DNA of 64,000 nucleotides from an uncultured cyanobacterium (GTDB lineage Bacteria > Cyanobacteriota > Cyanobacteriia > Cyanobacteriales > CAWUOF01): the NCBI GenBank assembly GCA_963744145.1, contig CAVUSO010000001.1:7136001-7200000 (forward strand), in the 5' to 3' direction. Each line of letters starts with the position of its first letter. Within the stretch, counting starts at the first letter, position 1. The translations under genes and the position numbers were made by a program. Below, piece after piece: positions 25,300-39,200 of the stretch. Under the pieces are notes generated by a model. That model worked only from the letters and a program-made list of their open reading frames with translations. It was not told the DNA's origin and did no database searches.

Positions 25300-28200
25300 G
25301 TGAAAACACTATTTGAAATTTGCACACCTAGACCTGATGTACTTAAAGGAAGTTTACGTGATTCAGATTTGGCTGCTGATCTGGCTCAAGTCATTTCCGG
25401 AACTGCTCCTGATGAATATAAGCGACCAGAGTTATTTTTTGCGAATACCTATCCAACTCAAGGTTTAAAAGCATTACTAAAAAATGTCTGTCAACGATTG
25501 AGTGGACAGGGTGGGGCAATTGCTGCGGTTTTTCGACTGGATACTCAGTATGGTGGTGGTAAGACCCATAGCTTAATTGCTCTTACTCATGCAGCAAGAG
25601 GGATGGAAGGTGTTACTAATATTGACGAATTTTGCGATCGCACTCTTATTCCCACCACTAAAGTTCGTCTAGCTGCTTTTGATGGTGAAAATGCTGATCC
25701 TGTCAATGGTCGTCTATTAGAAAATGGATTGCGTGCTTTTACTCCTTGGGGGGAAATAGCTTATGCTTTAGCTGGTTTAGCGGGTTATGAAAAAGTAAAA
25801 AATAGCGATATCGCAAGAGTCGCACCAGGTGCAGATACCATTAGAGAACTGTTTGGTGACGAACCAGTTCTCATCTTATTAGATGAACTATCGATATATC
25901 TTAGAAAAGCTAGTGGGAGAGGAGAGGAAAATCAGCTTACACCATTTCTAACAGCGTTATTTAAAGCAGTTAGTTCCTCTGAGCGTGCTTGTGTTGTATT
26001 TACCTTAGCGATCGGTAAAGATGGTAGAGCAAGTGATGCTTATTCTGATGAAAATGAACTTATTGCTAGTAAAATCGAGGAAGCGACTCAAGTAGCAGCA
26101 CGAGTAGCTACCCTACTTAATCCCACAACTGAACAGGAAACAGTGCAAGTTTTGCGTCGGAGATTATTTAGTCAAATTGATGAGATTGCTGCTCAAGAAG
26201 TAATTGCAGCTTATGAGAAATTATGGATTAATCATAGTAGTTATTTACCCACAGGTAGATTTAGTCATGATCGATTAGAAGCTTTGCGTAGTGGTTTCCC
26301 TTTTCATCCTACACTAATGGATTTAATGATCGATAAATTATCGACTTTAAGCAATTTTCAGAGAGTGCGGGGAATGCTCCGGTTATTAACAAATACCGTT
26401 GCTTATTTGTGGAAAGAGCAACCAAAAAATACCTATACAATTCATTTACACCATATAAATCCAGGATATGAACCACTCCGCAATGAGTTAGTGACAAGAC
26501 TAGATTTTGGTAGATTCGATCCTGCGATTCAGAACGATGTCTCATCAAGAGATGGGAATTCAGCGTTAGCAGAGCAACTTGATCTTCAGTATTATGGAGG
26601 ATTGGCTCCCTATTCTTCCTTTGTTGCGAGAACAGTCCTGTGGAATACCTTTGCTTTTAATGAAAACTTGCAAGGGATTGATGAGGTCAATCTACGTTAT
26701 GCTATTCTTGCACCAACTCTTGATATCAGTTTTATCAACGATGCTCGTCAGAAATTTGTAACAGAATCTGCTTATTTAGACGATCGTCCTGCTGCACCTT
26801 TACGATTTTTGAGCGAGGTTAACTTAAGCGTATTGATTCGCAGACAGTCAAAACAGGTTGATTTATCAATTGCTAGAACTGAGCTTAACGATCGCATTCG
26901 TGAGATCTTCAAAGGTAAGGAATTAAACCTAGTGCTAAATCCTGGAGGACCGCACGATGTACCTGATGATGTTGGTGATGGTCGTCCAAATTTAGTCTTA
27001 ATTTCCTATGATGCAGAAACAGTGCGAAGTGAGTCTCTTACTGTACCCCAATTGGTTGAGAATATTTATCAAACCCAGGGTTCTCAGGGTAAACCACGTC
27101 AATTAAAAAATAACTTGGTTTTTCTAGTAGCAGATGATGCAACCCGCGATGAGATGAAAAATAAGATGATTTATCGGTTAGCACTCGAAGCAATGCGACA
27201 AACCGATCGTCTGAATCAGTTAGCACCCTATCAGCAGGATAAAGTAAATGAGCTTTATCGTAAGTCGGAACAGGAAATTGCGATCGCGATTCAACAATGT
27301 TATCGACATCTGTTTTATCCATCTAAAAATAACCCGATCGAGGGTGCAAGTGTTGACTTAGGACATATTGCTTTTGATTTACCATCAACATCAGATGCAC
27401 CAGGGAAGGGACAAAATCAGATATTGCGTGCATTAAGCGAATATACTAATCCCTCTAAATTACTTCGTAGTGAGGATAAACCCACTTCACCTAATTATGT
27501 GCGCGATCAGACAACCCTCAGAAAAGGACAGATATCAACCTTAGAATTACGTTTAGAGTTTCGCAAAAATACCAAATTTTCGATTATGCTTGGCGATGAT
27601 AATTTTAAAGCATTGATTCGTCAAGGAGTTGAAGAAAATGTTTTTGTCTATCAGCGTGGTGATTTGATTTTTGGTAAGGGTGAACCACCTGTGGAAATCT
27701 TAATCGATCAAGATTCATATATTTATACAGCGGATCATGCTAAGGAAAAAGGAATTTTTCCCCGTCCTCCTGTTGAGCAACCAACTACTCCGACTACTCC
27801 TGAAGTAAATTATGGGGATGGATTGACAAGTAGGAAAATAAATGCTAAAGACGATCGAGACTCTTATGACTCAAGTTCTACCGGAACAGAGACTAAGGGA
27901 GATCCACCTAAAGTAAAGGTTTTTAAAGCAGAAGCACCATTACGGGAAGCTTTAACAAAAATTTGGGAAGATGCTCAAAGTGCAAAGGTATCGAAGCTAA
28001 AGTCTTTGAGTTTGCGGGTATTTGATCCGACCGATGCGTTTAAACTGATTGGTGCGATCGCTCAAGTTACTAATGCTGAGAAGGAGGTAAAGATTAGTGC
28101 TGAATACGAAACAAATGATGGTAGCAGTTTTCAGATAGAATTTACAGGAAAGCCCACAGATGCACAACCAATTAAGGACTTTTTACAACCACAACTGCGG

Positions 28201-28356
28201 GCTGCTGCGGACAAAGACCTAGACACTACTTTATTATTAACCTACCCTAATGGACTCGACTTAAATAGTAAGGAGCCAGCAAATTTGTCTGAAAAGTTAA
28301 CTCGTTTTGCCACAGGTGCAGTATTTGTAGAAGCTTATGCGGAGGCACAAGATTGA
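25300..28356 (+). CDS. DUF499 AAA-type ATPase of a restriction-like defence system
   Basis: FFANTYPT.GL, YGGGKTHSLIAL Walker A, LILLDEL Walker B, LRRRLF, FPFHP, FQRVRGMLRLL. Confidence 0.9.
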   Translation: MKTLFEICTPRPDVLKGSLRDSDLAADLAQVISGTAPDEYKRPELFFANTYPTQGLKALLKNVCQRLSGQGGAIAAVFRLDTQYGGGKTHSLIALTHAARGMEGVTNIDEFCDRTLIPTTKVRLAAFDGENADPVNGRLLENGLRAFTPWGEIAYALAGLAGYEKVKNSDIARVAPGADTIRELFGDEPVLILLDELSIYLRKASGRGEENQLTPFLTALFKAVSSSERACVVFTLAIGKDGRASDAYSDENELIASKIEEATQVAARVATLLNPTTEQETVQVLRRRLFSQIDEIAAQEVIAAYEKLWINHSSYLPTGRFSHDRLEALRSGFPFHPTLMDLMIDKLSTLSNFQRVRGMLRLLTNTVAYLWKEQPKNTYTIHLHHINPGYEPLRNELVTRLDFGRFDPAIQNDVSSRDGNSALAEQLDLQYYGGLAPYSSFVARTVLWNTFAFNENLQGIDEVNLRYAILAPTLDISFINDARQKFVTESAYLDDRPAAPLRFLSEVNLSVLIRRQSKQVDLSIARTELNDRIREIFKGKELNLVLNPGGPHDVPDDVGDGRPNLVLISYDAETVRSESLTVPQLVENIYQTQGSQGKPRQLKNNLVFLVADDATRDEMKNKMIYRLALEAMRQTDRLNQLAPYQQDKVNELYRKSEQEIAIAIQQCYRHLFYPSKNNPIEGASVDLGHIAFDLPSTSDAPGKGQNQILRALSEYTNPSKLLRSEDKPTSPNYVRDQTTLRKGQISTLELRLEFRKNTKFSIMLGDDNFKALIRQGVEENVFVYQRGDLIFGKGEPPVEILIDQDSYIYTADHAKEKGIFPRPPVEQPTTPTTPEVNYGDGLTSRKINAKDDRDSYDSSSTGTETKGDPPKVKVFKAEAPLREALTKIWEDAQSAKVSKLKSLSLRVFDPTDAFKLIGAIAQVTNAEKEVKISAEYETNDGSSFQIEFTGKPTDAQPIKDFLQPQLRAAADKDLDTTLLLTYPNGLDLNSKEPANLSEKLTRFATGAVFVEAYAEAQD

Positions 28357-28862
28357 TTCAAATAATTGAACCAAAAATCAGCACAAAAAATCGGATAAAT
28401 AACTCTTCTAATAGTGCTGAAAACCTGAGCCACTATCCTGTTTATGAATTAAGGGCGCGACGACTTAATGCTAGTGACAATGAGCTAGAAATATGGCAAT
28501 TACCTTCTTTAGCGACATCGCACCTAAAAGCACCCAAACGCATTGCTGGTTTACATGGTAGAAATTTAGCTTTAATCGAGCCTCGTTTGTTGCGTCAACT
28601 CAAACAAATAGGGATTGATTTGACAAAGCTAAAGGTTAAAGCGATCGCACATTTTGGATTAGATGAGGACAATGCTTTACGTTTGGGCTTAATGTTTCGG
28701 ATTTTGGCTCCCATGCGAAATCGGGATAGGATGGGTGAATGTACAGAAGGGATTGAAGCAATGGGTAAAGAAGAAGCTGCTTATTGGTTGGGTATGGCCA
28801 TGCACCGAAAGAACCCTCGACGGGTCTTGACTGCGTTACGATATTTATTAACTGAACGGTAA
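28353..28862 (+). CDS. Small accessory protein (DUF3780-like position)
   Basis: Overlaps the ATPase stop codon; EEAAYWL...ALR.LL C-terminal helix; called mainly from synteny. Confidence 0.65.
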   Translation: MIQIIEPKISTKNRINNSSNSAENLSHYPVYELRARRLNASDNELEIWQLPSLATSHLKAPKRIAGLHGRNLALIEPRLLRQLKQIGIDLTKLKVKAIAHFGLDEDNALRLGLMFRILAPMRNRDRMGECTEGIEAMGKEEAAYWLGMAMHRKNPRRVLTALRYLLTER

Positions 28863-28877
28863 AAATATGGATAACCC

Positions 28878-29163
28878 GTTGATGAAGTACATTCAATTAT
28901 CTCGTTTGGTTGGGCGGGTTTATGATGGTGATCTGTTTGGATCAGAATTAATTGGTGAACCCGCCCCTACAAATCCTGGTTGATTGTCATCATAAATTCA
29001 TCGACTTTTTGGTAAATAATCCCAGATCCGAATATATTTATCACCTGTAGGGGCGGGTTCACCGATGAATCTGCCACACATAAATAACCCTTGTGCCGAG
29101 CGCAGTCGAGGTATTAATGAACCCGCCCTGCCCCACAGATCACCTTAATGAACCTACCCATCT
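28878..29163 (+). mobile_element. Truncated copy of the MITE at 50514..50858
   Basis: GTTGATGAAGTACATTCA...GAACCTACCC near-identical to 50527-50806. Confidence 0.85.
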
Positions 29164-29198
29164 CACATCACTGCGTTGAATTCACCCTAAAAATGCCA

Positions 29199-29258
29199 AT
29201 GAATAGAAAAATCCTATTACAACAAAAAAAAGCAGATATTTTGGCGATCGCTCAAAAA
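29199..29258 (+). pseudogene. N-terminal remnant of a minimal nucleotidyltransferase antitoxin
   Basis: MNRKILLQQKKADILAIAQK resembles MNT N-termini. Confidence 0.45.
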
Positions 29259-29284
29259 CCAAGAATTCCTCAAAATGAAACAAG

Positions 29285-29550
29285 AACAGCATTATGTCCG
29301 GATTTGTAGGGGCAAAGCATTTCGGCGAATAAATTATGACATAGACACAGAGAACTAGGACCGAAATGCTTTGCCCTCAGCCATTTATGAAGCCAACAGA
29401 TTGACTAGATCAACAGCATTATGTCCGGATTTGTAGGATTTGTAGGGGCAAAGCATTTCGGCGAATAAATTATGACATAGACACAGAGAACTAGAACCGA
29501 AATGCTTTGCCCTCAGCCATTTATGAAGCCAACAGATTGACTAGATCAAC
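29285..29550 (+). repeat. Tandem duplication of a ~127-bp REP-containing unit
   Basis: AACAGCATTATGTCCGGATTTGTAGG...GATTGACTAGATC occurs twice. Confidence 0.9.
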
Positions 29551-29698
29551 CAAATAGAAATGTTTGATAATTGTCGCGGGGGCTGGGCGAAGCATTACCC
29601 AAATAGAGTTATCATTATAGATCATAAATTGTCGTGGGTAATGCTTCGCCCCTACGGGTGTTATGATCATTTATATAGATTAACTATACATAGAAAAA

Positions 29699-32644
29699 AT
29701 GACTAGAAGATTGATTGAAGATTGGTTACCTGCGGCAGCGATCGGTGAAGAAAGTGTTCGAGAGCGTCGCTCAATGACATCTTTACCTCCAATATACTAT
29801 CTTCATGTCTGGTTTGCGCGTCGTCCCCTTATCGCTTCTCGTGCAGCGATTCTTGCTTCTTTATTACCTGCGGATGCCGATCGCACTAAATTTATGCACA
29901 TTCTCGGTATTCATGGTGATCCTGTAGCTAGTCGGAGAAGAATTGATCAAGCTAAAAGAACAGGCGATCGCTTTGAAGGTCAAGCATATTCATATTCCCG
30001 TGCATTTAGTTACAATTCAACAAAAGAAGAAAAAGAATGGTTTATTACTGAGTTGGCAAAACTAGGAATTGAGAATCCTAGCGTACTTGATCCGACTGCT
30101 GGTGGTGGTAGCATACCTTTTGAAGCAAGTCGATTAGGATTAGCGGCGTTTGCAAATGACTTAAATCCTGTAGCAGCAACGATTCTTAAAGCAACTATCG
30201 AATTTCCTCAAACACACGGAGTTAAACTTTTAGAAGAGTTTGAAAGACTATCAAAAAAGTTTATTGAACGCAGAGAAGAAAGATTAACGCCGTTTTATCC
30301 TAAAGAACCAAAACCAAATTGTATTGGTACAAATTATATTTTCGCTCGAACAATTAAATGTCCTTATTGTGATGGATTAGTGCCACTTTCACCCAATTGG
30401 CGACTTGCACCTGATGGGACGGGCGTAAAACTTAAACCTAATTTAGAAACCCGGATCTGTGATTTTGAAATTGTCTATAAGATCAAAGACCAATCCGCAG
30501 GTACTGTTAAAGGTGGTGATGCGATGTGTTGCTATTCTGATTGTGGTAGAGCGATCGCTGGTGATGATGTGAAGCGTCAGGCACAAGCTGGGGGAATGGG
30601 CGATCAACTTTTTGCAGTAGTTTACAAAGAACGAATAGAAACTACAACCAAAAGCGGAAAACGTGGCAAAGATAAATGGAATCGTGGCTATCGCGCTCCT
30701 TTGGCTAATGATGACAATGTGGAAGAGATTAAAGTAAGACTTGCTGATAAGTTGATTGAATGGGAAGCACTAGACTTTATTCCAGCGGAGATACTACCGT
30801 TAGATACTGAATCTTGGATGCACGGTAATACACCTGTTCAGTATGAAGGAGCAAAAAGATTTACAGACCTATTTTCCCCTAGACAATTACTTTGTCATGG
30901 TATAAGTGTAGAAGTTTTTAGAGAAATTCTTGAAGAAGAGGAACAAAAAGGAACACTTGAAGAAGCAACTAAAGCAGCTTTTGTTTATTTAAGTTTTGCG
31001 ATCGATAAAATGCTTAACTACAATTCTCATTCTGGGCGTTGGGATATATCAACTGCCAGAGTTAGGTCTATTTTTGATCGGCATGATTTTGCTTTCGTAT
31101 GGTCTTATGCAGAAATGGCTCCCTTAATCGTCGGTCTAGGTTATGATTGGGCTATAGAACAAACAGGCAAATGTATAGAAGAATTAATCGAACTAACCCG
31201 TCCAGACATCGACATCAAAGCAGCAAAAAGTAAAGCAATCAATCCCAACTTATTTGAGTCAATCAAACCAAGAGCATCAACCACTATCACCTGTAAATCA
31301 GCCGATAATCTTGATCATATTCAAGATGAATTCATCGATGCAATTATCATCGATCCGCCTTACTACGATAACGTCATGTATGCCGAACTGAGCGACTTCT
31401 TTTATGTGTGGCTCAAACGCACAGCAGGCTATGTTTATCCCGAATTTTTCACCAGACAACTCACCGACAAAGAAAACGAAGCCGTAGCAAATCCTGCCAA
31501 ATTTCAAGGACAAAAAGGCGCAAAAGCCCTAGCAGCCAAAGACTATCAACAACGCATGGCAACAATTTTCACCGAATGTCGGCGAGTCCTCAAACCAGAA
31601 GGTATCCTCACTCTCATGTTTACCCACAAAGCCCAGGGCGCATGGGATGCTCTCGCATCAGGATTATTAGAAGCAGGATTTATCATCACCGCATCATGGG
31701 CAGTAAATACCGAAGCAGAAGGAAGCTTACACATCAAAGATAAAGCTGCTGCCAAAAGTACCATCTTTCTAGTTTGCCGCCCCCGTCCCCCCAAAACCGC
31801 AGATACAGAGATCCTTTACTGGGAAGACATCGAGCCACAAGTTGCAGCCAAAGTGCGATCGCGCGTCGGTGAATTTCAGAAAGGAGGAATCAAAGGAGTT
31901 GACCTATATCTCTCCTGTTTCGGTCCTGCATTGCAAGTTCTCTCCGAACATTTCCCACTGAAACGCGGCACTCCAAAAGTCCAAATTATCAAGAAAACAC
32001 GCCAAAAAGACACCCTAGAAGAACCAACCGATCCCTACGCAGTCACCCCAGAAGATGCTCTAGATTCAGCCAGAAGAGAAGTAAAACGTTGGCGAATGGA
32101 ACAACTACTGGGAACAAAACGCCAAAATAATCTTGATGCGATCACCGAATGGTTTGTCTTAGCCTGGGATGCTTTCGAGTCACCCCGATTCCCCTACGAT
32201 GAAGGTTTACGACTCGCTCGTGTAGTTGGAGTTGATCTCGATCGCGAGATCATCGGTCACATTGCGGAAAAGAAAGCCAGCGACATTCAACTCTGGGATA
32301 GTGCCCAACGCGGTGCCAAAGGACAACTCGGTGCAGCTGATGGAAGTAAATCTATGCTAGATGCAATCCATCATGCAGCCAATCGCGCTCGTACTCATGG
32401 ACTCGAAACAGCAAAGCAAATGCTCGAACAAAATAAAACAGATATAAATCCAGACTTTCATTCAGCTCTGCTTGCCATGTTAGAAGTATTACCAGTATCA
32501 AGTACCTATACCAAATTTGAAGAAGAAGAAGGACCCGTTGCTGAAGCAGCCCAAGACTTTGATGTATTAGAAAACCTACGTCGCTTAATGTTTAGTGAAA
32601 AAGTTCCCCAGCCTAAGCAATTAGAAATTTGGTTAGAATTATAA
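29699..32644 (+). CDS. DUF1156 amino-DNA methyltransferase
   Basis: [24 protein letters not shown] (motif I), CPYC Zn ribbon, FSPRQL, DPPYYDN (motif IV). Confidence 0.92.
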
Positions 32645-32969
32645 TACACCATATTCCATAGACCGCTGACAAAAATAACCAGGTCGATTGAAAATTGATT
32701 GAGCGGAGTCGAAATCAAGGGCTGTTTTAATTCCCTTCACATTGCCCCCTTCGGCTACGCTCAGGCTACACTTCGACTACGCCCAGGGCACAGGGCACGC
32801 ACAGGGCACGCTCTAGGGTATTAATTCTGAACCGTGGGTTGTCCACAGAGGGAGGATATTGTTTGAAATATTCGGGTATTTAGACAATATTTTATTTTAC
32901 GTAAACCTTTATTGAATAAGGATTTAGAGTGAAAATGTAAAATAAGTAATATTTGGTTATCTTGTGCTA

Positions 32970-32999
32970 TTGACAAATAACGTAAAATAGGTTTAAAGT
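32970..32999 (+). promoter_or_regulatory. Putative sigma70 promoter with ACGTAAAATA box
   Basis: TTGACA-18 nt-TAAAGT; the spacer box ACGTAAAATA is inverted at 32893-32902 and has a variant at 32935-32944. Confidence 0.5.
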
Positions 33000-33068
33000 A
33001 TGTAACAAGTAATTTTAGTGAAATAGTTGCACAAGATGCTTGGATCACATAGTTAAAAGGAAAGACCC

Positions 33069-33509
33069 GTGAGTTCTTATAAGCAACTCCCACTATCGGA
33101 TCTAAGAGAAAGTTTGCCCAAGTTTAAACGTCAAGTCCAGCTTGGGATGAAAAGAATTGCAGCTACTTACTATGGTCAAGTAGTTGGGTTCTTAGTTCCT
33201 CTCAAGGATCTGGAAGAAGCCGAAAAAGATGGCGCTATTAATAATAGTGAAGAAATGTCTCTATCAGAGTTTCGGTTGCATTTGACAGAATGCTGGGAGC
33301 GACTACAGCTTGATGTTGACTGTATTTATGTCACTTATCACACACGTAGAGCTGTGGCATTTCTTAGTCCTCGTCTTGCTAATTATCTTTTAATACCGAT
33401 TTCCGAAGTTGCTTACAAACTTCTTGCTATTGATAGTGGTCTAATTGAAACATCCAATTTAGTAGTTAAAGATAATAGTTTGATTGAAATAATCAATAAG
33501 GAGACTTGA
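33069..33509 (+). CDS. Tandem Phd/YefM-like antitoxin
   Basis: Two repeats: LPLSDLRESL...RIAATYYGQVVGFLVP and MSLSEFRLHL...CIYVTYHTRRAVAFLSP. Confidence 0.65.
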   Translation: MSSYKQLPLSDLRESLPKFKRQVQLGMKRIAATYYGQVVGFLVPLKDLEEAEKDGAINNSEEMSLSEFRLHLTECWERLQLDVDCIYVTYHTRRAVAFLSPRLANYLLIPISEVAYKLLAIDSGLIETSNLVVKDNSLIEIINKET

Positions 33510-33512
33510 TTT

Positions 33513-34403
33513 ATGTCTAAGTTTACAATTTTAGTTGATCAGGAAACTCAAGAAAAAATAAACAATCCTGAGAAATATTTTCCTCCCGAAGCTTGTGCCG
33601 AGATAAAATATTTTATCCAGATACTTGAAAGAGATGGTCAATTAACCAAAACAGATTTTTACGACATTAATACTAATAAAATCAGCGGGGTAGCTGTTAA
33701 CTTATTTTATAGAGTTAATTTTACTAAGAATCAGGTATTGATAATTGATATAAAGGTAAAATCTACTGATATTTTAAAACAAAGATTTCAAATTAATGAT
33801 GATTACAATGATCAAGATGTTTTGGATAAAATTCCGCAATACGATCAACCTAAAAAGATAATTAAAGCTATTATTTTGATAGATAAAGGGGTAAAAGATT
33901 CCTATAACTTAGGTTGTGAGTTAGGTCATAAAGCCAAGAAAGAAAAAGATATTGCACGGCATGGACAGTATGCAATGCAAGCTTTAGAGCAACTTGACTT
34001 AATTACAAGGATAAAAATAGAGAAAGTTCGTAAACTAGAACCTAAGTTGACTGAAAAAGGGAAGTTAATTGTTAATGCACCTAATGAGGATTTAAGATGC
34101 AGGTTGCTTATTGAAGCGATGCTAAAGTATCATCCTGTTTGGAAAATTCTTGTGGCTGTTTCTAAAAATGAAGATCAACCTCACAATAATATGATCCTAA
34201 ATGATGAATTAGTTAAAAATCTTATTTTCCCAAAAGAACTACATGGAGCTGATACGACTAATCGGCGATCGCAGACTTTAAAAAATTGGATTAAGTGGAT
34301 TTGTAAATTTTCTGGAATTCCTATTTATGTTAATGAACATAGTGTCCAACTTCCTATTCCAATGTTATTTGCTGAAAGTACGATAAATGAAGATGAATGT
34401 TAA
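33513..34403 (+). CDS. RelE-like N-terminal domain fused to a winged-helix domain
   Basis: N-term ...LFYRVNFTKNQVLIIDIK; C-term IPQYD...RHGQY..ALEQLDLI...LTEKGK...TTNRRSQTLKNWIKWI. Confidence 0.55.
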   Translation: MSKFTILVDQETQEKINNPEKYFPPEACAEIKYFIQILERDGQLTKTDFYDINTNKISGVAVNLFYRVNFTKNQVLIIDIKVKSTDILKQRFQINDDYNDQDVLDKIPQYDQPKKIIKAIILIDKGVKDSYNLGCELGHKAKKEKDIARHGQYAMQALEQLDLITRIKIEKVRKLEPKLTEKGKLIVNAPNEDLRCRLLIEAMLKYHPVWKILVAVSKNEDQPHNNMILNDELVKNLIFPKELHGADTTNRRSQTLKNWIKWICKFSGIPIYVNEHSVQLPIPMLFAESTINEDEC

Positions 34404-34618
34404 TATAAAAAAAACATATTCTTCTAAATGTGTAAGCACTCTAAAATTATAGCGATCGCGGACATTTTTAATACAAATATCTGTTAGTGATCGCTATTAA
34501 TATTGATGAAAAATACCCTTATTTTATAATTCAAAAAAGAATTCACAAACAGTTTATTAAGTTAGTTTAAAATAAATCTTTTAATCTATAAAAACAATCT
34601 GAACATGGAACTAATATT

Positions 34619-35128
34619 ATGGCATACTTAAAATACAATGGAGTTCAAATAGTGATTAATGATGAGAAAGTTTGCGTTACAGATATTTACAATGCAGCGG
34701 GAAAAATTCCTAATAAAGCACCTACTAATTTTAAAAATTCTAAACAAGGGATAAGCGAAATAAAAAAGTATGAACGTAAATATGGAACAATAGTATGGGT
34801 AAGTAAAACAGGTGTAAATACAATAGCAAGATTTGAAATTGGTGCTGCATATCTAAACTATCTTGGTGATCACATAGCTGCAAAAAAACTATTAGAAGTT
34901 GGTGAAACAGGTAAAAATATTGAATACAATAATCAATCTAATTTCCAATCTTATAATCAATTCACCAAGTCTTCAATTCAATCTTCTTCATCTACTAATA
35001 TATTCAATATTATCTTGGGAATAGTAGGAATATTAGTTATTTTATCATTATTATTTAGTAAAAAAGAAGAAAATCATCAACAACCTTATCAATACAAACA
35101 AGAAAATATCGCGCCAGATACTAATTAG
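34619..35128 (+). CDS. KilA-N-like domain protein with C-terminal TM helix
   Basis: YNGVQI...VTDIYNAAG..NKAPTNFKNSKQ...EIGAAYLNYL, followed by IFNIILGIVGILVILSLLF. Confidence 0.6.
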   Translation: MAYLKYNGVQIVINDEKVCVTDIYNAAGKIPNKAPTNFKNSKQGISEIKKYERKYGTIVWVSKTGVNTIARFEIGAAYLNYLGDHIAAKKLLEVGETGKNIEYNNQSNFQSYNQFTKSSIQSSSSTNIFNIILGIVGILVILSLLFSKKEENHQQPYQYKQENIAPDTN

Positions 35129-35368
35129 TTTTGTTTATCACTATTTCACAAAAGGTTGCCCCCATTTTTCCCACATCTGGCGATTAAAGGGCGATCGCGC
35201 TCCAACTGTCTCAACTATTATCGCATCTTAGAGAATATGGACAACTAGGGAATTTGGGGGGCGATCGCAGTATTCCCAGACAGAAGTAACTAATGGTAGA
35301 TGATCGCATTCTATCTAAATAAATTTTCTGCTATAATAACTTAATGCAAAATAACCGGAGTAATAGCT

Positions 35369-36211
35369 ATGGAAAAAGATACTATTAACACCTTAACTGA
35401 AAACTTTGAATCTCATGCTCAACAAACTGAAAACGGGATTGAATATTGGCTTGCCCGTGACCTTCAACATCTTTTAGGTTATTCAGAGTGGCGCAATTTT
35501 ACAGGAGTGATAACAAAAGCAAAAACTGCTTGTGAAGTTTCTAATTATGACACCTCAGACCATTTTGTTGACGTTACCAAAATGGTTGATCTTGGTTCAG
35601 GAGGTCAGCGAGAGATAGATGATCTAATGTTAACCCGTTATGCTTGCTATCTCATAGCTCAAAATGGAGATCCTCGTAAACAAGAAATAGCTTTTGCCCA
35701 AACCTATTTTGCTATCCAAACCAGAAAGGCAGAGTTAATCGAGCAAAGATTGTTAGAAGCTGAGAGGGTGTCAGCTAGAAAGAAACTATCAGAGACTGAA
35801 AAAGAGCTTTCTAAAGTGATCTACGAACAAACAGGAAGTGAGCGGGATTTTGCTTCAATCCGTAGTAAGGGAGATTCAGCGTTATTTGGTAAATCCACTA
35901 AAGCAATGAAAGCACAATGGAAAATACCTGATAATCGACCATTGGCAGACTTCGCACCAACCATTATTTTAAAAGCTAAGGATTTTGCAGCTGAGATTAC
36001 TATTTTTAATTCAAGAGAAAATCAATTGAATACAGAGCCAGCTATTTCTAGGGAACATATCACTAATAATCAAGCTGTTCGAGATACATTATTGCAAAGA
36101 GGTATTCGTCCGGAGACTTTACCACCTGCGGAAGATGTGAAGAAAGTTGAACGTCGTCTTGCTTCAGAGGTGAAAAAATCTATGAAAAATCCTGATGCTC
36201 TTGAGTCTTAG
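35369..36211 (+). CDS. dinD: DNA damage-inducible protein D (BRO-N-like)
   Basis: EYWLARDLQHLLGYSEWRNF, LTRYACYLIAQNGDPRK, FAQTYFAIQTR, LPPAEDVKKVERRL. Confidence 0.92.
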   Translation: MEKDTINTLTENFESHAQQTENGIEYWLARDLQHLLGYSEWRNFTGVITKAKTACEVSNYDTSDHFVDVTKMVDLGSGGQREIDDLMLTRYACYLIAQNGDPRKQEIAFAQTYFAIQTRKAELIEQRLLEAERVSARKKLSETEKELSKVIYEQTGSERDFASIRSKGDSALFGKSTKAMKAQWKIPDNRPLADFAPTIILKAKDFAAEITIFNSRENQLNTEPAISREHITNNQAVRDTLLQRGIRPETLPPAEDVKKVERRLASEVKKSMKNPDALES

Positions 36212-36294
36212 TTAATCATAAATCTGGCACCAAAGAGAGATATTTATACCTTTGTTAAAATGAGCTTTAGGAAGTTTTAAGTACCTTAAAAACT

Positions 36295-39200
36295 ATGAGT
36301 CTATTATCAGACTACCAATGGCATACTAAATATGACTCTGATAGTGTCAGTCTCATTCAAGAATTCTATGAACCTGCCCTTAGTTGTGCTGTGCGCTACG
36401 ATCGCTCTACAGGTTTTTTCTCAGCTAAACTCCTCACTCTGGCGGCACGAAGTATTGAAAACCTAGTCCACAATAATGGAAAGATGCGGTTGGTAATTGG
36501 CTGCACTATCTCGGAAGCGGAAGTTAATGCGATTGAAAAAGGTGAAAGACTTCGTGATGTAGTTGATCGTCGCATGACCGCATTTCCTCTTGATCCGCGA
36601 TCGCCCTATGAAATCGAAGCTCTAGAGCTATTATCCTGGATGATTGCCCAAGAATATCTAGATATTAAACTTGCATTACCATGTAACTTTCGCGATCGCA
36701 AACCGATTGTCTCATCTGGGATTTTTCATGAGAAAGCTGGCATTATTGAAGACCGTATTGGTAATCGTTTAGCCTTTAATGGTAGCATCAATGAAACAGC
36801 TATGGGTTGGCAGGGGAATTGGGAAAGTTTTCATGTTTTTACTGACTGGACAGGTAGTAAATTCCATGTAGATGATGAAGAAAATAGTTTTGGTAAACTT
36901 TGGAATAATCAAGCAAAACGCTGTCTGGTTATCGATGTTCCTACGGCTATGCGAGAGCAATTATTGAGATTTTTACCGACGGATGATCAACCTCACCGAC
37001 TCAAAGTTAATGATTCTCCCCCAGTTGTTCCACCTCAAATTAACCAAATACCTAAAATCCTCAACCCTGAAATTGATGATATTAGTGAAAAGTTTAAACA
37101 GGTTTGGCAAATTATTCATCATGGAGCATCTTGCAAGGGTAGAGGCGATCGCATTGGTGAAGCTACTGCCAATATTAAGCCATTTCCTCATCAAATTAAA
37201 GCTTTTGGGCGTCTCTACGATCACTATCCACCGAAACTCCTAATTGCTGATGAAGTTGGGCTTGGTAAAACTATTGAAGCTGGATTATTACTTAGACAAG
37301 CATGGCTTTCAGGTAAAGCAAAGCGAATCTTAATCCTAGCACCTAAATCTGTTCTTACCCAATGGCAAATTGAACTTCGCGAAAAATTTAACCTCAATAT
37401 TCCGATCTATGATGGTAAGAATCTTTGCTGGTATGATTGTCCAGCTTTACGGGTTTTCGGTCAAGGGATTGAAAAGTCTGTTAGTCGTCAAGAATGGCAC
37501 AAAGAATCAATCGTAATTGTTTCCAGTCATCTGATGCGAAGAAGCGATCGCGCTAAAGAATTATTAGAAGATGCAGAACCTTACGATTTAGTTTTTCTAG
37601 ATGAAGCACACCATGCACGAAGACAAGGTGATCAAGGTGCAAACCAACTCCTAAAACTCATGCAGCGACTAAAAGATCGAACTCAAGGTTTAGTGCTGCT
37701 GACTGCAACACCAATGCAAGTTGATCCAATCGAAGTTTGGGACTTATTAAACTTACTCGGATTACCAAATCTATGGAATAGTGATTACTTTCAGAAATTT
37801 TTTGAATATGCTAGTGCAAGTAATCCTAGTCATGAACAATTTGAGTTTATGGCACAATTGTTTCGAGCTGTCGAATCTTATTTTGGGGAAACAAGCATTG
37901 CATCAGTAATGCGTTATGTCAAAGATAGTAAACTTGCTGCCAAAACTATTTTAAAAGCACTCCGAGATGAAGCACAACTACCCAGAAGACAACTAAATAG
38001 TGAGCGTCGTCGGGCTGCGATCGCGATAATGAAAGCTAATACACCAGTCACAAAACTAATTTCTCGTCATACCCGTGAACTCCTCCGTCGCTACTACGAA
38101 GCAGGCAAAATTAGTAGTCGAATTGCTACCCGGATTGTTGAAGATGAATTTGTCAATCTTACTGCTAGTGAACGCACTCTTTACGAAGCAGTAGAAGATT
38201 ACATTTCAACTACTTACAACAACGCATCAACAGCAGAACGCAACGCTGTTGGTTTTGTGATGACTATTTATCGTCGTCGTCTTGCTAGTAGCTTTGCTGC
38301 TCTTACCCATACCCTCAGTATGAGGATTGAGAAAATTAACAACTCAAAGCAGATCAAAAATAATTTAAACCAGTTTGTCTTAATTGAAGATATCTCAGAC
38401 GATGAAACTGACGATGAAGTTATGGATACGGATACTGCAAACAAACTTGAGCAGGAAGCACTCAAACGCGAAGAAGTTTTGGAACTAGAATATCTGCGCG
38501 ATCGCATTCGTCAACTACCTACAGACACAAAAGCTAAAATACTCCTCAACAAGATTCAACAATTGCAAACCGAAGGTTACCAACAAGTCATCATCTTTAC
38601 CCAATACACCGACACCATGGACTTTTTGCGTAAATTTCTATTGAAATCAGATCAACAAAGCTTAATTTGTTTTTCAGGTAGAGGTGGTGAAATAGCTAAC
38701 AGCGATCGCAGTTGGCGAAATATTTCACGGGATGAAACCAAACGGATATTTCGGGAAGGTAAAGCCGATATCTTACTTTGTACAGATGCGGCTGCTGAAG
38801 GTCTAAACTTTCAGTTTTGTGGCGCACTTATTAACTATGATATGCCTTGGAATCCCATGCGAGTGGAACAACGGATCGGTCGGATTGATCGATTAGGACA
38901 AACTTTTGCATCGATTAAAATTATTAACTTGCATTATCGCAATACGATCGAGACAGATGTTTAATTGCAAAATTCTTTTAATTGTTTTTGTACTGGCCTC
39001 AATTCCCCATTTTTCTTTGGCTTTTTCTACCACTTGTTTTAATTGTCTTGGTTCGGATTTTGTCCACTCTTTAATTTGGTTTTCTTGTTCAGAATTAAAT
39101 TTTGGTTTAGAGCCTCTACCTGATTGATTATATAATCCAACCATACTAGATGATTCCCATCGCCCAAACCAATTATAAATTGTTTTAGAGCTGACGTTGA

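What the first reader, a model, noticed from the sequence alone, without database searches (positions are those of the whole stretch)
32893..34403. Candidate new TA/defence module: single-chain double Phd plus RelE-like/winged-helix fusion
Seen: a promoter with repeated and inverted ACGTAAAATA boxes; a 146-aa protein made of two Phd/YefM-like repeats; and, 3 bp later, a 296-aa protein. The latter has an ~85-aa RelE/ParE-like N-terminus and a C-terminal IPQxD...LTxxG...TxxRRxxTLxxWxxW winged-helix domain of the kind seen in restriction-associated proteins. Established: Phd normally dimerises and pairs with RelE, Doc or PIN toxins. Inference: a pre-dimerised antitoxin/repressor with a toxin fused to a DNA (possibly modified-DNA) sensor. 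This is the best candidate for an undescribed system in the window.
Basis: partly seen in the sequence, partly recalled or inferred. Interest (0 to 1): 0.8.

Follow-up and report, generated by a model that had tools for sequence, protein, structure and literature searches.

The report
Unusual toxin-antitoxin-like pair in a cyanobacterium
Two tightly linked genes encode an internally duplicated antitoxin-type protein and a partner that joins a toxin-type fold to a DNA-recognition domain borrowed from restriction enzymes, a conserved cyanobacterial module whose action is still untested.

Summary
Gene A (33069-33509, 146 aa) is a tandem duplication of the Phd/YefM antitoxin fold plus a disordered tail. 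Gene B (33513-34403, 296 aa) starts 3 nt later. It has an N-terminal RelE-type fold (aa 1-92) fused to DUF7226 (aa 108-280). DUF7226 is the C-terminal winged-helix module of a type II restriction-enzyme family that sits next to Dam-type methylase genes.

The pair is conserved: A lies directly upstream of B in 40 of the 41 unique cyanobacterial loci where this could be checked. It sits in varied contexts, including two plasmids.

- The RelE-fold domain has no residue set conserved across the family that could be a catalytic site. The invariant residues lie in DUF7226. A classic mRNA-cutting toxin is therefore unlikely.
- In 23 of 41 related loci a third gene C overlaps the end of B. C is about 165 aa and carries an invariant E...D...ExK nuclease motif. 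C is absent from this window and genome, yet B stays under purifying selection in lineages without C.
- The box conserved across the family is the middle one (32935-32944, core GTAAAA). The exact inverted ACGTAAAATA pair is not.

Best reading: a TA-type module in which A represses the operon and holds B in check, and B acts on DNA. Toxicity, binding and DNA targeting are all untested. It is a new variant of a known kind.

The parts
32893..32902 (-). Box copy 1, exact ACGTAAAATA on the - strand. It lies within the 10-nt palindrome TTTACGTAAA (read off).
   Evidence: This copy is specific to the window. Related ACGTAA elements occur in the distant clade.
32935..32944 (+). Box copy 2, ATGTAAAATA. 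This is the family-conserved box (core GTAAAA), about 25 nt upstream of the -35 hexamer.
   Evidence: (23 of 28 loci).
32980..32989 (+). Box copy 3, exact ACGTAAAATA, inside the promoter spacer.
32970..32999 (+). Sigma-70-like promoter: TTGACA, 18 nt, TAAAGT.
   Evidence: 10 of 12 matches. This is a consensus match only. A TTGACA at the same relative place is seen in related loci.
33056..33064 (+). Ribosome-binding-like AAAGGAAAG ahead of the GTG start.
   Evidence: The GAGGAAA block and the GTG are conserved in the aligned loci.
33069..33509 (+). Gene A, 146 aa: an internally duplicated Phd/YefM-fold protein.
33075..33227 (+). A repeat 1 (aa 3-53), strand-helix-helix-strand-strand-helix.
33246..33386 (+). 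A repeat 2 (aa 60-106), same topology.
33387..33506 (+). A tail (aa 107-146). Model confidence is low. L107, I109, P110 and L119 are conserved in 90% or more of sequences. Inferred partner-binding segment.
   Evidence: conserved columns; pLDDT below 50 for aa 120-146.
33513..34403 (+). Gene B, 296 aa: RelE-type fold fused to DUF7226.
33513..33788 (+). B N-terminal domain (aa 1-92), RelE/ParE-superfamily fold.
   Evidence: No conserved catalytic set.
33834..34352 (+). B DUF7226 module (aa 108-280): a winged helix (aa 113-197) plus a helical lobe. Invariant in the wide family: R149, L163, T248, R251.

Best explanation
This is a free-standing, horizontally moving type II toxin-antitoxin-type operon of Phd/YefM-RelE ancestry with a rebuilt architecture.

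Shown:
- A is one chain carrying two Phd/YefM folds and a conserved, disordered tail.
- B carries a RelE-type fold and a restriction-enzyme-type DNA-recognition module (DUF7226).
- The two genes are 3 nt apart and almost never separated.
- A conserved GTAAAA-core box lies just upstream of the promoter.

Inferred:
- The two repeats of A pack as a pseudo-dimer. This does the job of the Phd/YefM homodimer: it binds the operator and represses the operon.
- A's single tail wraps the RelE-fold domain of B, giving a 1:1 complex. This would be the covalent counterpart of the asymmetric YefM2-YoeB trimer (recalled from the literature).
- The RelE-fold domain of B is mainly a non-catalytic docking handle for A.
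- B's active part is DUF7226, which binds DNA.
- When A is lost, B binds DNA. It then either obstructs DNA transactions or, in the 23 of 41 loci that have gene C, brings in that small PD-(D/E)XK-motif nuclease.

This window holds the two-gene form without C.
For: Architecture and folds.

Pair conservation over 44 unique loci (feed it):
- A is directly upstream of B in 40 of the 41 loci with room to see it. The one exception, L055, is a B remnant (aa 116-288).
- B is interrupted beside an intact A in L007 and L008 and in L088.
- A stands without B once (L027).
- This asymmetry is what addiction logic predicts.

Mobility: the flanks vary. They include isoleucyl-tRNA synthetase (ileS), ATP synthase, transketolase, other TA genes and Uma2. 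Two copies are on plasmids.

Selection:
- A repeats: 82% and 75% mean pairwise identity, dN/dS 0.07-0.08.
- B domains: 42-56% identity, dN/dS 0.20-0.24.
- Within the Nostoc/Anabaena group that lacks C, B has dN/dS 0.06-0.13. A-B is therefore functional without C.

Functional centre of B:
- The only invariant residues over 24 members are in DUF7226: R149, L163, T248, R251.
- Stand-alone DUF7226 proteins share invariant P108, Q109, R149, Y153, G183, T248, R251, R252 and W259, in B numbering.

DUF7226 as a DNA-recognition module:
- Fold matches to MarR-type winged helices at Z 8-9.
- FokI recognition domain at Z 8.9 with 163 residues aligned.
- BrxA and SspB, both at Z 7.5.
- It is the C-terminus of PADLOC REase_II, E 1.8e-82. 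Ten of 10 such genes examined sit just downstream of a D12 methylase gene.

Operator: the box is conserved in 23 of 28 loci. GTAAAA lies within 200 nt upstream of A in 9 of 13 loci of the clade whose A is about 50% identical, and 3 more carry near variants.
Against: No interaction, toxicity or DNA binding was tested. The complex predictor was unavailable.

That the two repeats pack like a Phd dimer is inferred from one AF2 model (pLDDT 76.6, pTM 0.68). Foldseek returned only low-probability CBS-pair matches for the whole chain. The Phd matches have Z of only 3.4-4.3.

A evolves more slowly than B. As far as I recall, antitoxins in classic type II pairs usually evolve faster than their toxins, so this is atypical. 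It could mean that A has another main role.

The RelE-fold domain is under purifying selection (dN/dS 0.20). In the window's own subfamily it keeps invariant E26, E30, R91 and F92, so an activity of its own is not excluded.

The MAFFT alignment of that fast-evolving domain may hide a conserved site.

The conserved box lies upstream of the -35 hexamer in most loci. That position suits an activator site as well as an operator.
Confidence: 0.5

Rival explanations
1. B is a true RelE/ParE-type toxin. Its N-terminal domain would cut ribosome-bound mRNA or poison gyrase. DUF7226 would only add operator binding, or tether the toxin to DNA.
For: - RelE and YoeB are the best structural matches (Z 9.3-8.2; Foldseek probability 1.00).
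- Purifying selection acts on the domain.
- The subfamily keeps invariant E26, E30, R91 and F92, and K83 in 90% or more.
- One homologue is named RelE by a public source (P0225).
- Atlas look-alikes of aa 1-100 include RelE/ParE clusters, but at scores of 0.81-0.82, which are leads only.
Against: - No charged or histidine residue in aa 1-92 is conserved at 90% over 24 members. The segment with K83/R91/F92 is absent in distant members.
- Within the distant clade alone, the N-domain invariants are L34, G41 and Y70 in that alignment's numbering.
- Only 1 of 24 members touches Pfam ParE_toxin, at E 0.099.
- No PDB toxin is found by sequence.
- A 200-aa C-terminal extension is not known for ribosome-dependent RelE toxins (recalled).
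Confidence: 0.2
2. A and B form a domesticated, non-toxic regulator pair. They would act as a two-part DNA-binding complex that controls its own operon and perhaps neighbouring genes, with no growth-arrest function.
For: - Both proteins carry DNA-binding-type folds.
- A is unusually conserved, as is a matching upstream box.
- The toxin-fold domain lacks a conserved active site.
Against: - The neighbours differ from locus to locus, so there is no conserved regulated target.
- The distribution is patchy. Full-length B was found in 4 of 401 genomes sampled across the phylum. The family matched in 26 of 401 genomes in a class-level sample.
- Copies occur on plasmids.
- Intact B was not seen without A.
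- A nuclease-motif gene often overlaps B.
- All of this fits selfish or defence modules better than housekeeping regulators.
Confidence: 0.15
3. The window's copy is a decaying remnant of an ancestral three-gene A-B-C system. It would have lost its effector nuclease C and would no longer do anything.
For: - C is present in both deep branches of the family, in 23 of 41 loci. It is therefore probably ancestral.
- C is absent from the window and from the whole genome.
Against: - Both window genes are intact.
- Eighteen loci without C, in several clades, keep B. Sixteen of these hold a B match spanning most of the gene. The other two are L008 (interrupted) and L055 (remnant).
- Within the Nostoc/Anabaena group lacking C, B has dN/dS 0.06-0.13.
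Confidence: 0.05

Closest known systems
YefM-YoeB, Phd-Doc and the M. tuberculosis RelBE pairs with YefM-type antitoxins (type II TA)
   Same: - Antitoxin-first operon with a very short spacer.
- Phd/YefM fold with a disordered C-terminal tail.
- The partner has a RelE/YoeB-type fold.
- An upstream box that could be an operator.
   Different: - The antitoxin fold is duplicated within one chain, with a single tail.
- The toxin-fold domain lacks a conserved catalytic set and is fused to a 190-aa DNA-recognition module.
- A evolves more slowly than B.
- A third gene is often present.
Type II restriction-enzyme family next to Dam-type methylase genes (PADLOC REase_II PDLC03513; Pfam DUF6996-DUF6997-DUF7226)
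   Same: It shares the DUF7226 module and its invariant motifs.
   Different: - B has no PD-(D/E)XK domain of its own and no methylase partner.
- The restriction enzymes carry invariant D174 and E187-x-K189 in DUF6997.
- Gene C shows no profile similarity to that catalytic domain.
FokI DNA-recognition domain, BrxA (BREX) and SspB (Ssp system)
   Same: Fold-level likeness of B aa 96-296 to these multi-winged-helix DNA binders of defence systems: Z 8.9, 7.5 and 7.5.
   Different: No sequence similarity was found. These Z values are in the range that the tool's notes call common for such folds.
Hma system (helicase, methylase, ATPase)
   Same: The pair lies between an HmaB-like methylase gene and a PLD-SNF2 helicase gene, downstream of an HmaC gene.
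   Different: It is not a component of Hma. None of the 93 flanking ORFs scanned in 26 of the 27 other loci carries DUF1156, DUF499 or an SNF2 helicase domain.

Membership tests
Phd/YefM antitoxin family (Pfam PF02604) | Sequence match above Pfam's curated cut-off | tested here: not met
   20.1 bits against a cut-off of 29.8 (E 5.4e-4), repeat 1 only. Some close homologues carry a precomputed PF02604 hit.
Phd/YefM antitoxin family (Pfam PF02604) | N-terminal strand-helix-helix-strand-strand-helix fold | tested here: met
   One search gives this topology twice. In one search, the nine best chains are Phd/YefM-family antitoxins aligned to aa 59-116 (Z 3.4-4.3, low because the domain is small). 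In one search, the family profile matches a solved RelB (YefM type) at E 0.0014 over positions 7-60.
Phd/YefM antitoxin family (Pfam PF02604) | Homodimer forms the DNA-binding unit | not testable with these tools
   Here a tandem repeat in one chain would replace the dimer. The halves align at E 3.5e-5. The packing was not compared with a solved dimer.
Phd/YefM antitoxin family (Pfam PF02604) | Disordered C-terminal tail that binds the toxin | tested here: inconclusive
   The tail has pLDDT below 50 for aa 120-146 and conserved L107, I109, P110 and L119. Binding was not tested.
RelE/ParE toxin superfamily | RelE/ParE fold | tested here: met
   Z 9.3, rmsd 2.9 A, 81 of 88 residues of archaeal RelE aligned. 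TM 0.62-0.71 normalised to the toxin.
RelE/ParE toxin superfamily | Sequence membership (Pfam ParE_toxin and related models) | tested here: not met
   none; 1 of 24 members at E 0.099; no toxin chain.
RelE/ParE toxin superfamily | Conserved catalytic residues. For RelE these are K52, K54, R61, R81 and Y87; for YoeB, E46, R65, H83 and Y84. These residue names are recalled, not taken from a call. | tested here: not met
   in aa 1-92 only L38, G42 and Y66 reach 90% over 24 members; the distant clade's N-domain invariants are L34, G41 and Y70 in its own numbering. The limits are the alignment quality and the fact that ParE-type toxins need no such set.
RelE/ParE toxin superfamily | Small single-domain protein of about 85-110 aa | tested here: not met
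   B is 296 aa with a fused DUF7226.
DUF7226 (Pfam PF23871) | Match above the curated cut-off, and the family's invariant motifs | tested here: met
   50.6 bits against 27. P108, Q109, R149, Y153, G183, T248, R251, R252 and W259 are shared with 12 stand-alone members.
Type II toxin-antitoxin system | Adjacent co-directional gene pair, conserved as a pair in varied contexts | tested here: met
   (40 of 41 loci).
Type II toxin-antitoxin system | One product is toxic and the other neutralises it by binding | not testable with these tools
Known anti-phage defence systems (PADLOC-DB 2.0) | A hit to any system model | tested here: not met
   no family for A or B; none for C.

The most novel reading that the evidence does not exclude
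A-B(-C) is a restriction-like DNA-targeting system gated by an antitoxin instead of a methylase. B would supply sequence recognition through the restriction-enzyme module DUF7226. C, where present, would supply PD-(D/E)XK cleavage. The RelE-fold domain would have been recruited purely as the latch by which the single-chain Phd pseudo-dimer A keeps the complex off the chromosome. Loss of A, for example on phage infection or plasmid loss, would unleash DNA binding or cutting.
Probability: 0.25. Interest if true: 0.8.

Novelty: new variant of a known kind. Interest (0 to 1): 0.62.

Why it matters
If confirmed, the module would show three things not described for type II TA systems in the papers I could search:
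- an antitoxin whose obligatory dimer has become one chain, which fixes a 1:1 stoichiometry;
- a toxin fold reused as a regulatory latch rather than as the enzyme;
- a restriction-enzyme recognition domain working without a methylase.

It would also give DUF7226 and the small nuclease-motif family C their first functional context. Look-alikes of C are frequent in phages. The pair is compact (1.5 kb) and easy to test in E. coli.

Tried and rejected
- RNA runs: no RNA holder was listed.
A smaller alignment and a single protein found nothing. A class-level genome search served instead.
- BLASTP between the two halves of A: no alignment. Profile comparison was needed.
- Foldseek on the A model: only CBS-pair chains, at probability 0.21 or less and rmsd 14-16 A. 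I read this as a shared two-repeat topology, not kinship.
- PDB sequence searches: B's profile gave only centromere protein S at E 0.15. The C profile gave nothing. The restriction-enzyme family member P0197 gave nothing.
- NCBIfam: no family for A or B.
- Pfam for C and for the Nostoc downstream genes: nothing credible.
- hhalign of C against the restriction-enzyme family: probability 0.5%.
- Longer fused forms of B (635-2000 aa): none. The tool itself calls this weak evidence.
- A in phage records: no match.
- Earlier findings of this scan: nothing by place, sequence or words.
- Papers. DUF7226, DUF6996/DUF6997 and four locus tags gave 0 papers. Two wider word searches listed 6 and 3 papers, and none describes this architecture, judged from titles and the starts of abstracts only. 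Two searches failed on term syntax.
- Idea rejected, that the pair belongs to the surrounding Hma system: no Hma-type gene is among the 93 flanking ORFs scanned in other loci.
- Idea rejected, that window gene 34619-35128 is a counterpart of C: BLASTP found no similarity, and tblastn with C proteins did not match the window.
Full report
WHAT IS THERE

Gene A is a GTG-started ORF at 33069-33509 (146 aa). Gene B is an ATG-started ORF at 33513-34403 (296 aa), and it starts 3 nt after A's stop. Upstream lies a 244-nt AT-rich spacer with a sigma-70-like site: TTGACA 32970, 18 nt, TAAAGT 32999. Exact ACGTAAAATA lies at 32893-32902 (-) and 32980-32989 (+); these are the only exact copies in the window. 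ATGTAAAATA lies at 32935-32944. No terminator-like site was found in 32500-35400.

ARE THE BOXES MORE THAN CHANCE?

Within the window alone, hardly.
- Window-wide, 11 matches with up to one mismatch compare with 7.2 expected. Eleven of 100 shuffles reach that number.
- A three-member 10-mer family appears in 64 of 300 shuffles of the spacer.
- A separated exact inverted 10-mer appears in 112 of 2000.

Comparison across loci settles it.
- [ACT][TC]GTAAAA[CT]A lies on the coding strand within 220 nt upstream of gene A in 23 of 28 loci, window included. The background is 0.006 per such stretch.
- It is the single block conserved in 12 of 12 aligned upstream regions.
- In the clade whose A is only about 50% identical, GTAAAA lies within 200 nt upstream of A in 9 of 13 loci. 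In seven of these it reads GTAAAAAACG, and in most it sits just ahead of a TTGACA. Three more loci carry near variants, and L089 has none.

The window's orthologous copy is the middle box. The two exact copies are local additions, one of them in the promoter spacer. Many of these loci are close kin, so the counts overstate independence.

A second conserved block, an AGTA-N8-TACT palindrome just before the ribosome-binding site, is degenerate in the window.

GENE A

Pfam sees Phd_YefM in aa 6-54 only, at E 5.4e-4, below the curated cut-off. The family profile finds a solved YefM-type RelB at E 0.0014 over positions 7-60.

The AF2 model (pLDDT 76.6, pTM 0.68) has the strand-helix-helix-strand-strand-helix unit twice, at aa 3-53 and aa 60-106. 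After that comes a low-confidence tail. An exhaustive structural search puts nine Phd/YefM-family antitoxins on top, all aligned to aa 59-116. The Z values are small (3.4-4.3), as expected for a domain of about 50 residues. The halves align profile to profile at E 3.5e-5, 41 columns, 32% identity, although BLASTP sees nothing. Foldseek on the whole chain gave only weak CBS-pair matches.

The tail keeps L107, I109, P110 and L119 in 90% or more of 27 sequences. Several public gene calls for A start at an internal Met, for example P0125. This hides part of repeat 1.

GENE B

The AF2 model is good (pLDDT 85.2, pTM 0.78).

Residues 2-86 superpose on archaeal RelE (Z 9.3, rmsd 2.9 A, 81 aligned), M. 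tuberculosis RelE1 (Z 8.9) and YoeB (Z 8.5 and 8.2). Foldseek lists RelE, YafQ, YoeB, ParE2 and HigB at probability 1.00 but E about 1e-2. There is no sequence-level match to any toxin family.

Residues 108-280 are Pfam DUF7226. Residues 111-197 match MarR-type winged helices at Z 8-9. The whole C-terminal half matches the FokI recognition domain (Z 8.9, 163 aligned), SspB and BrxA (Z 7.5 each).

WHAT DUF7226 IS

A profile search of 1.84 billion representatives gave 82 hits. These fall into three groups:
- the full-length B family of about 290 aa;
- proteins of 425-602 aa that match only through their C-termini;
- small stand-alone proteins.

Of the 15 long hits that I scanned, 14 are DUF6996-DUF6997-DUF7226, and one is fused to a Dam fragment. 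One such protein (P0197) matches PADLOC's type II restriction-enzyme model over its full length at E 1.8e-82. An alignment of 16 such proteins shows invariant D174 and E187-x-K189 in DUF6997.

In 401 sampled cyanobacterial genomes, DUF6997 was found in 30. Ten of 10 loci examined have a D12 adenine methylase gene just upstream, and seven of these overlap by 8 nt. Stand-alone DUF7226 proteins share B's invariant P108, Q109, R149, Y153, G183, T248, R251, R252 and W259.

The motifs he listed are the family signature.

CONSERVATION OF THE PAIR

Three searches were pooled and duplicates removed, giving 44 unique loci including the window. They were:
- an A-centred search of species genomes: 27 loci, 25 with B directly downstream, one cut by a contig end, one without B;
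- a B-centred search of 401 genomes across the phylum;
- a class-level search of 401 genomes, of which 26 matched.

Results over the 44 loci:
- A lies directly upstream of B in 40 of the 41 loci with room to see it.
- The exception, L055, is a B remnant (aa 116-288) with no A.
- B carries an internal stop next to an intact A in L007 and L008, and is split in L088.
- A stands alone once (L027).

All named relatives are cyanobacteria. B was also found on two cyanobacterial plasmids, and the Nostoc one carries an annotated prevent-host-death gene directly upstream. A was not found in phage records.

Flanking genes vary. They include isoleucyl-tRNA synthetase (ileS), ATP synthase, transketolase, porphobilinogen deaminase (hemC), PIN, ParE, HepT/MNT, DUF5615/DUF433 and Uma2. 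The pair is therefore a self-contained, mobile module.

In this window it sits inside an Hma-type island:
- HmaC, 25300-28356;
- DUF7680, 28353-28862;
- HmaB-like DUF1156 methylase, 29699-32644;
- the A-B pair;
- a KilA-N-like gene and a DinD gene;
- a PLD-SNF2 helicase, 36295-38964.

Nothing links the pair to Hma elsewhere.

A THIRD GENE IN RELATIVES

In 23 of the 41 loci with room downstream, a gene C of about 165 aa follows B. In the loci checked base by base, it overlaps B's 3' end by a few to some tens of nucleotides.

Nine aligned members share invariant G25-E26, I53-D54 and V67-E68-x-K70. I read this spacing as a PD-(D/E)XK nuclease site. That is an inference from the motif. C has no Pfam, PADLOC or PDB hit and no profile similarity to DUF6997. 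Its Atlas look-alikes are unnamed clusters common in phages. The nearest named clusters carry NOV_C on 18% of members and PDDEXK_14 on 13%, which are leads only.

C occurs in both deep branches of the family, so it is probably ancestral. It is absent from the window and from the whole genome.

WHERE THE CONSTRAINT LIES

Mean pairwise identity and dN/dS over 20 loci (the pairs are not independent):

| Region | Identity | dN/dS |
|---|---|---|
| A repeat 1 | 0.82 | 0.07 |
| A repeat 2 | 0.75 | 0.08 |
| B RelE-fold domain | 0.42 | 0.20 |
| B winged helix | 0.53 | 0.24 |
| B C-terminal lobe | 0.56 | 0.22 |

Over 24 B-family members down to 20% identity, the invariant residues are R149, L163, T248 and R251, all in DUF7226. 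In aa 1-92 only L38, G42 and Y66 reach 90%. The helix with K83, R91 and F92, which is conserved in the window's subfamily, is deleted in distant members.

Within the Nostoc/Anabaena group that lacks C, B still shows dN/dS 0.06-0.13.

INTERPRETATION

The gene order, the spacing, the conserved box, the mobility and the asymmetry of decay are the marks of a type II TA-type module. By asymmetry I mean that intact B was not seen without A, whereas broken B beside intact A was seen three times.

The pattern of conservation argues against a classic RelE nuclease. It points to DUF7226 as B's working part.

I therefore favour this model (confidence 0.5). A is a single-chain pseudo-dimeric repressor. 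Its one tail latches onto the RelE-fold domain of B. B is a DNA-directed effector that acts alone here and with nuclease C elsewhere.

The rivals are:
- a true RelE/ParE toxin with an accessory DNA-binding domain (0.2);
- a domesticated, non-toxic regulator pair (0.15);
- a functionless remnant (0.05).

None of the binding, toxicity or DNA-recognition steps has been shown. The complex predictor was unavailable and no RNA data were listed.

NOVELTY

Public records call A 'prevent-host-death family protein' or hypothetical. They call B 'hypothetical' or 'DUF7226 domain-containing'. One source calls a homologue RelE.

No paper in the searched library holds DUF7226, DUF6996, DUF6997 or the four locus tags searched. 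Two wider searches listed nothing that describes this architecture, judged from listings only. Subscription journals are largely outside that library, so earlier mention elsewhere cannot be excluded.

I rate it a new variant of a known kind.

Noticed in passing
window 25300-38964: An Hma-type defence island is split by inserted genes. Its parts are HmaC/DUF499 ATPase (25300-28356), DUF7680 (28353-28862), HmaB-like DUF1156 methylase (29699-32644) and PLD-SNF2 helicase (36295-38964). Four unrelated genes, including the A-B pair, lie between the methylase and the helicase.
   Followed up: partly
window 34619-35128: A 169-aa ORF has a weak KilA-N match (E 9.4e-4, below the cut-off). By my own reading of the translation, it also has a hydrophobic, probably membrane-spanning segment near the C-terminus. 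A promoter-like site, TTGATG, 16 nt, TATAAT, lies at 34503-34530. It is not related to gene C.
   Followed up: partly
window 35369-36211: This is a DinD-type protein. It matches NCBIfam 'DNA damage-inducible protein D' at E 6e-115, has a Bro-N domain, and matches PADLOC PDC-S13 at E 1e-118.
   Followed up: partly
window about 29280-29560: A stretch of about 127 bp is repeated twice in tandem in the 840-nt spacer between the DUF7680 gene and the methylase gene. Short GAACCCGCCC-like motifs lie further upstream. Seen by eye.
   Followed up: no
window 32780-32809: Direct repeats of GCACAGGGCAC lie right after the methylase stop codon (families D4 and D5).
   Followed up: no
L001-L003, L005-L007, L014-L019, L024, L051, L078-L082, L084-L088: Gene C is about 165 aa with an invariant E...D...ExK motif. 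It follows B in 23 of 41 loci and overlaps B's end where checked. Its Atlas look-alikes are mostly unnamed clusters frequent in phages.
   Followed up: partly
L008, L010-L013 (for example L010:7481-9085): In Nostoc loci without C, a conserved trio of unknown genes (297, 143 and 83 aa) follows B on the same strand. A GTAAAA box lies in the spacer between them.
   Followed up: no
L002:2730-5579 and L002:7877-8293: A full isoleucyl-tRNA synthetase gene lies on one side of the A-B-C module. A 139-aa N-terminal fragment of the same enzyme lies on the other side. This suggests the module inserted at the 5' end of the synthetase gene (ileS) with a duplication.
   Followed up: no
L041-L050: The putative restriction enzyme DUF6996-DUF6997-DUF7226 lies just downstream of a D12/Dam methylase gene in 10 of 10 loci examined. 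DUF6997 was found in 30 of 401 sampled cyanobacterial genomes.
   Followed up: yes
P0155 (362 aa): One representative protein reads through from the second repeat of an A-type protein into a B-type protein. It may be a true fusion or a gene-calling artefact.
   Followed up: no
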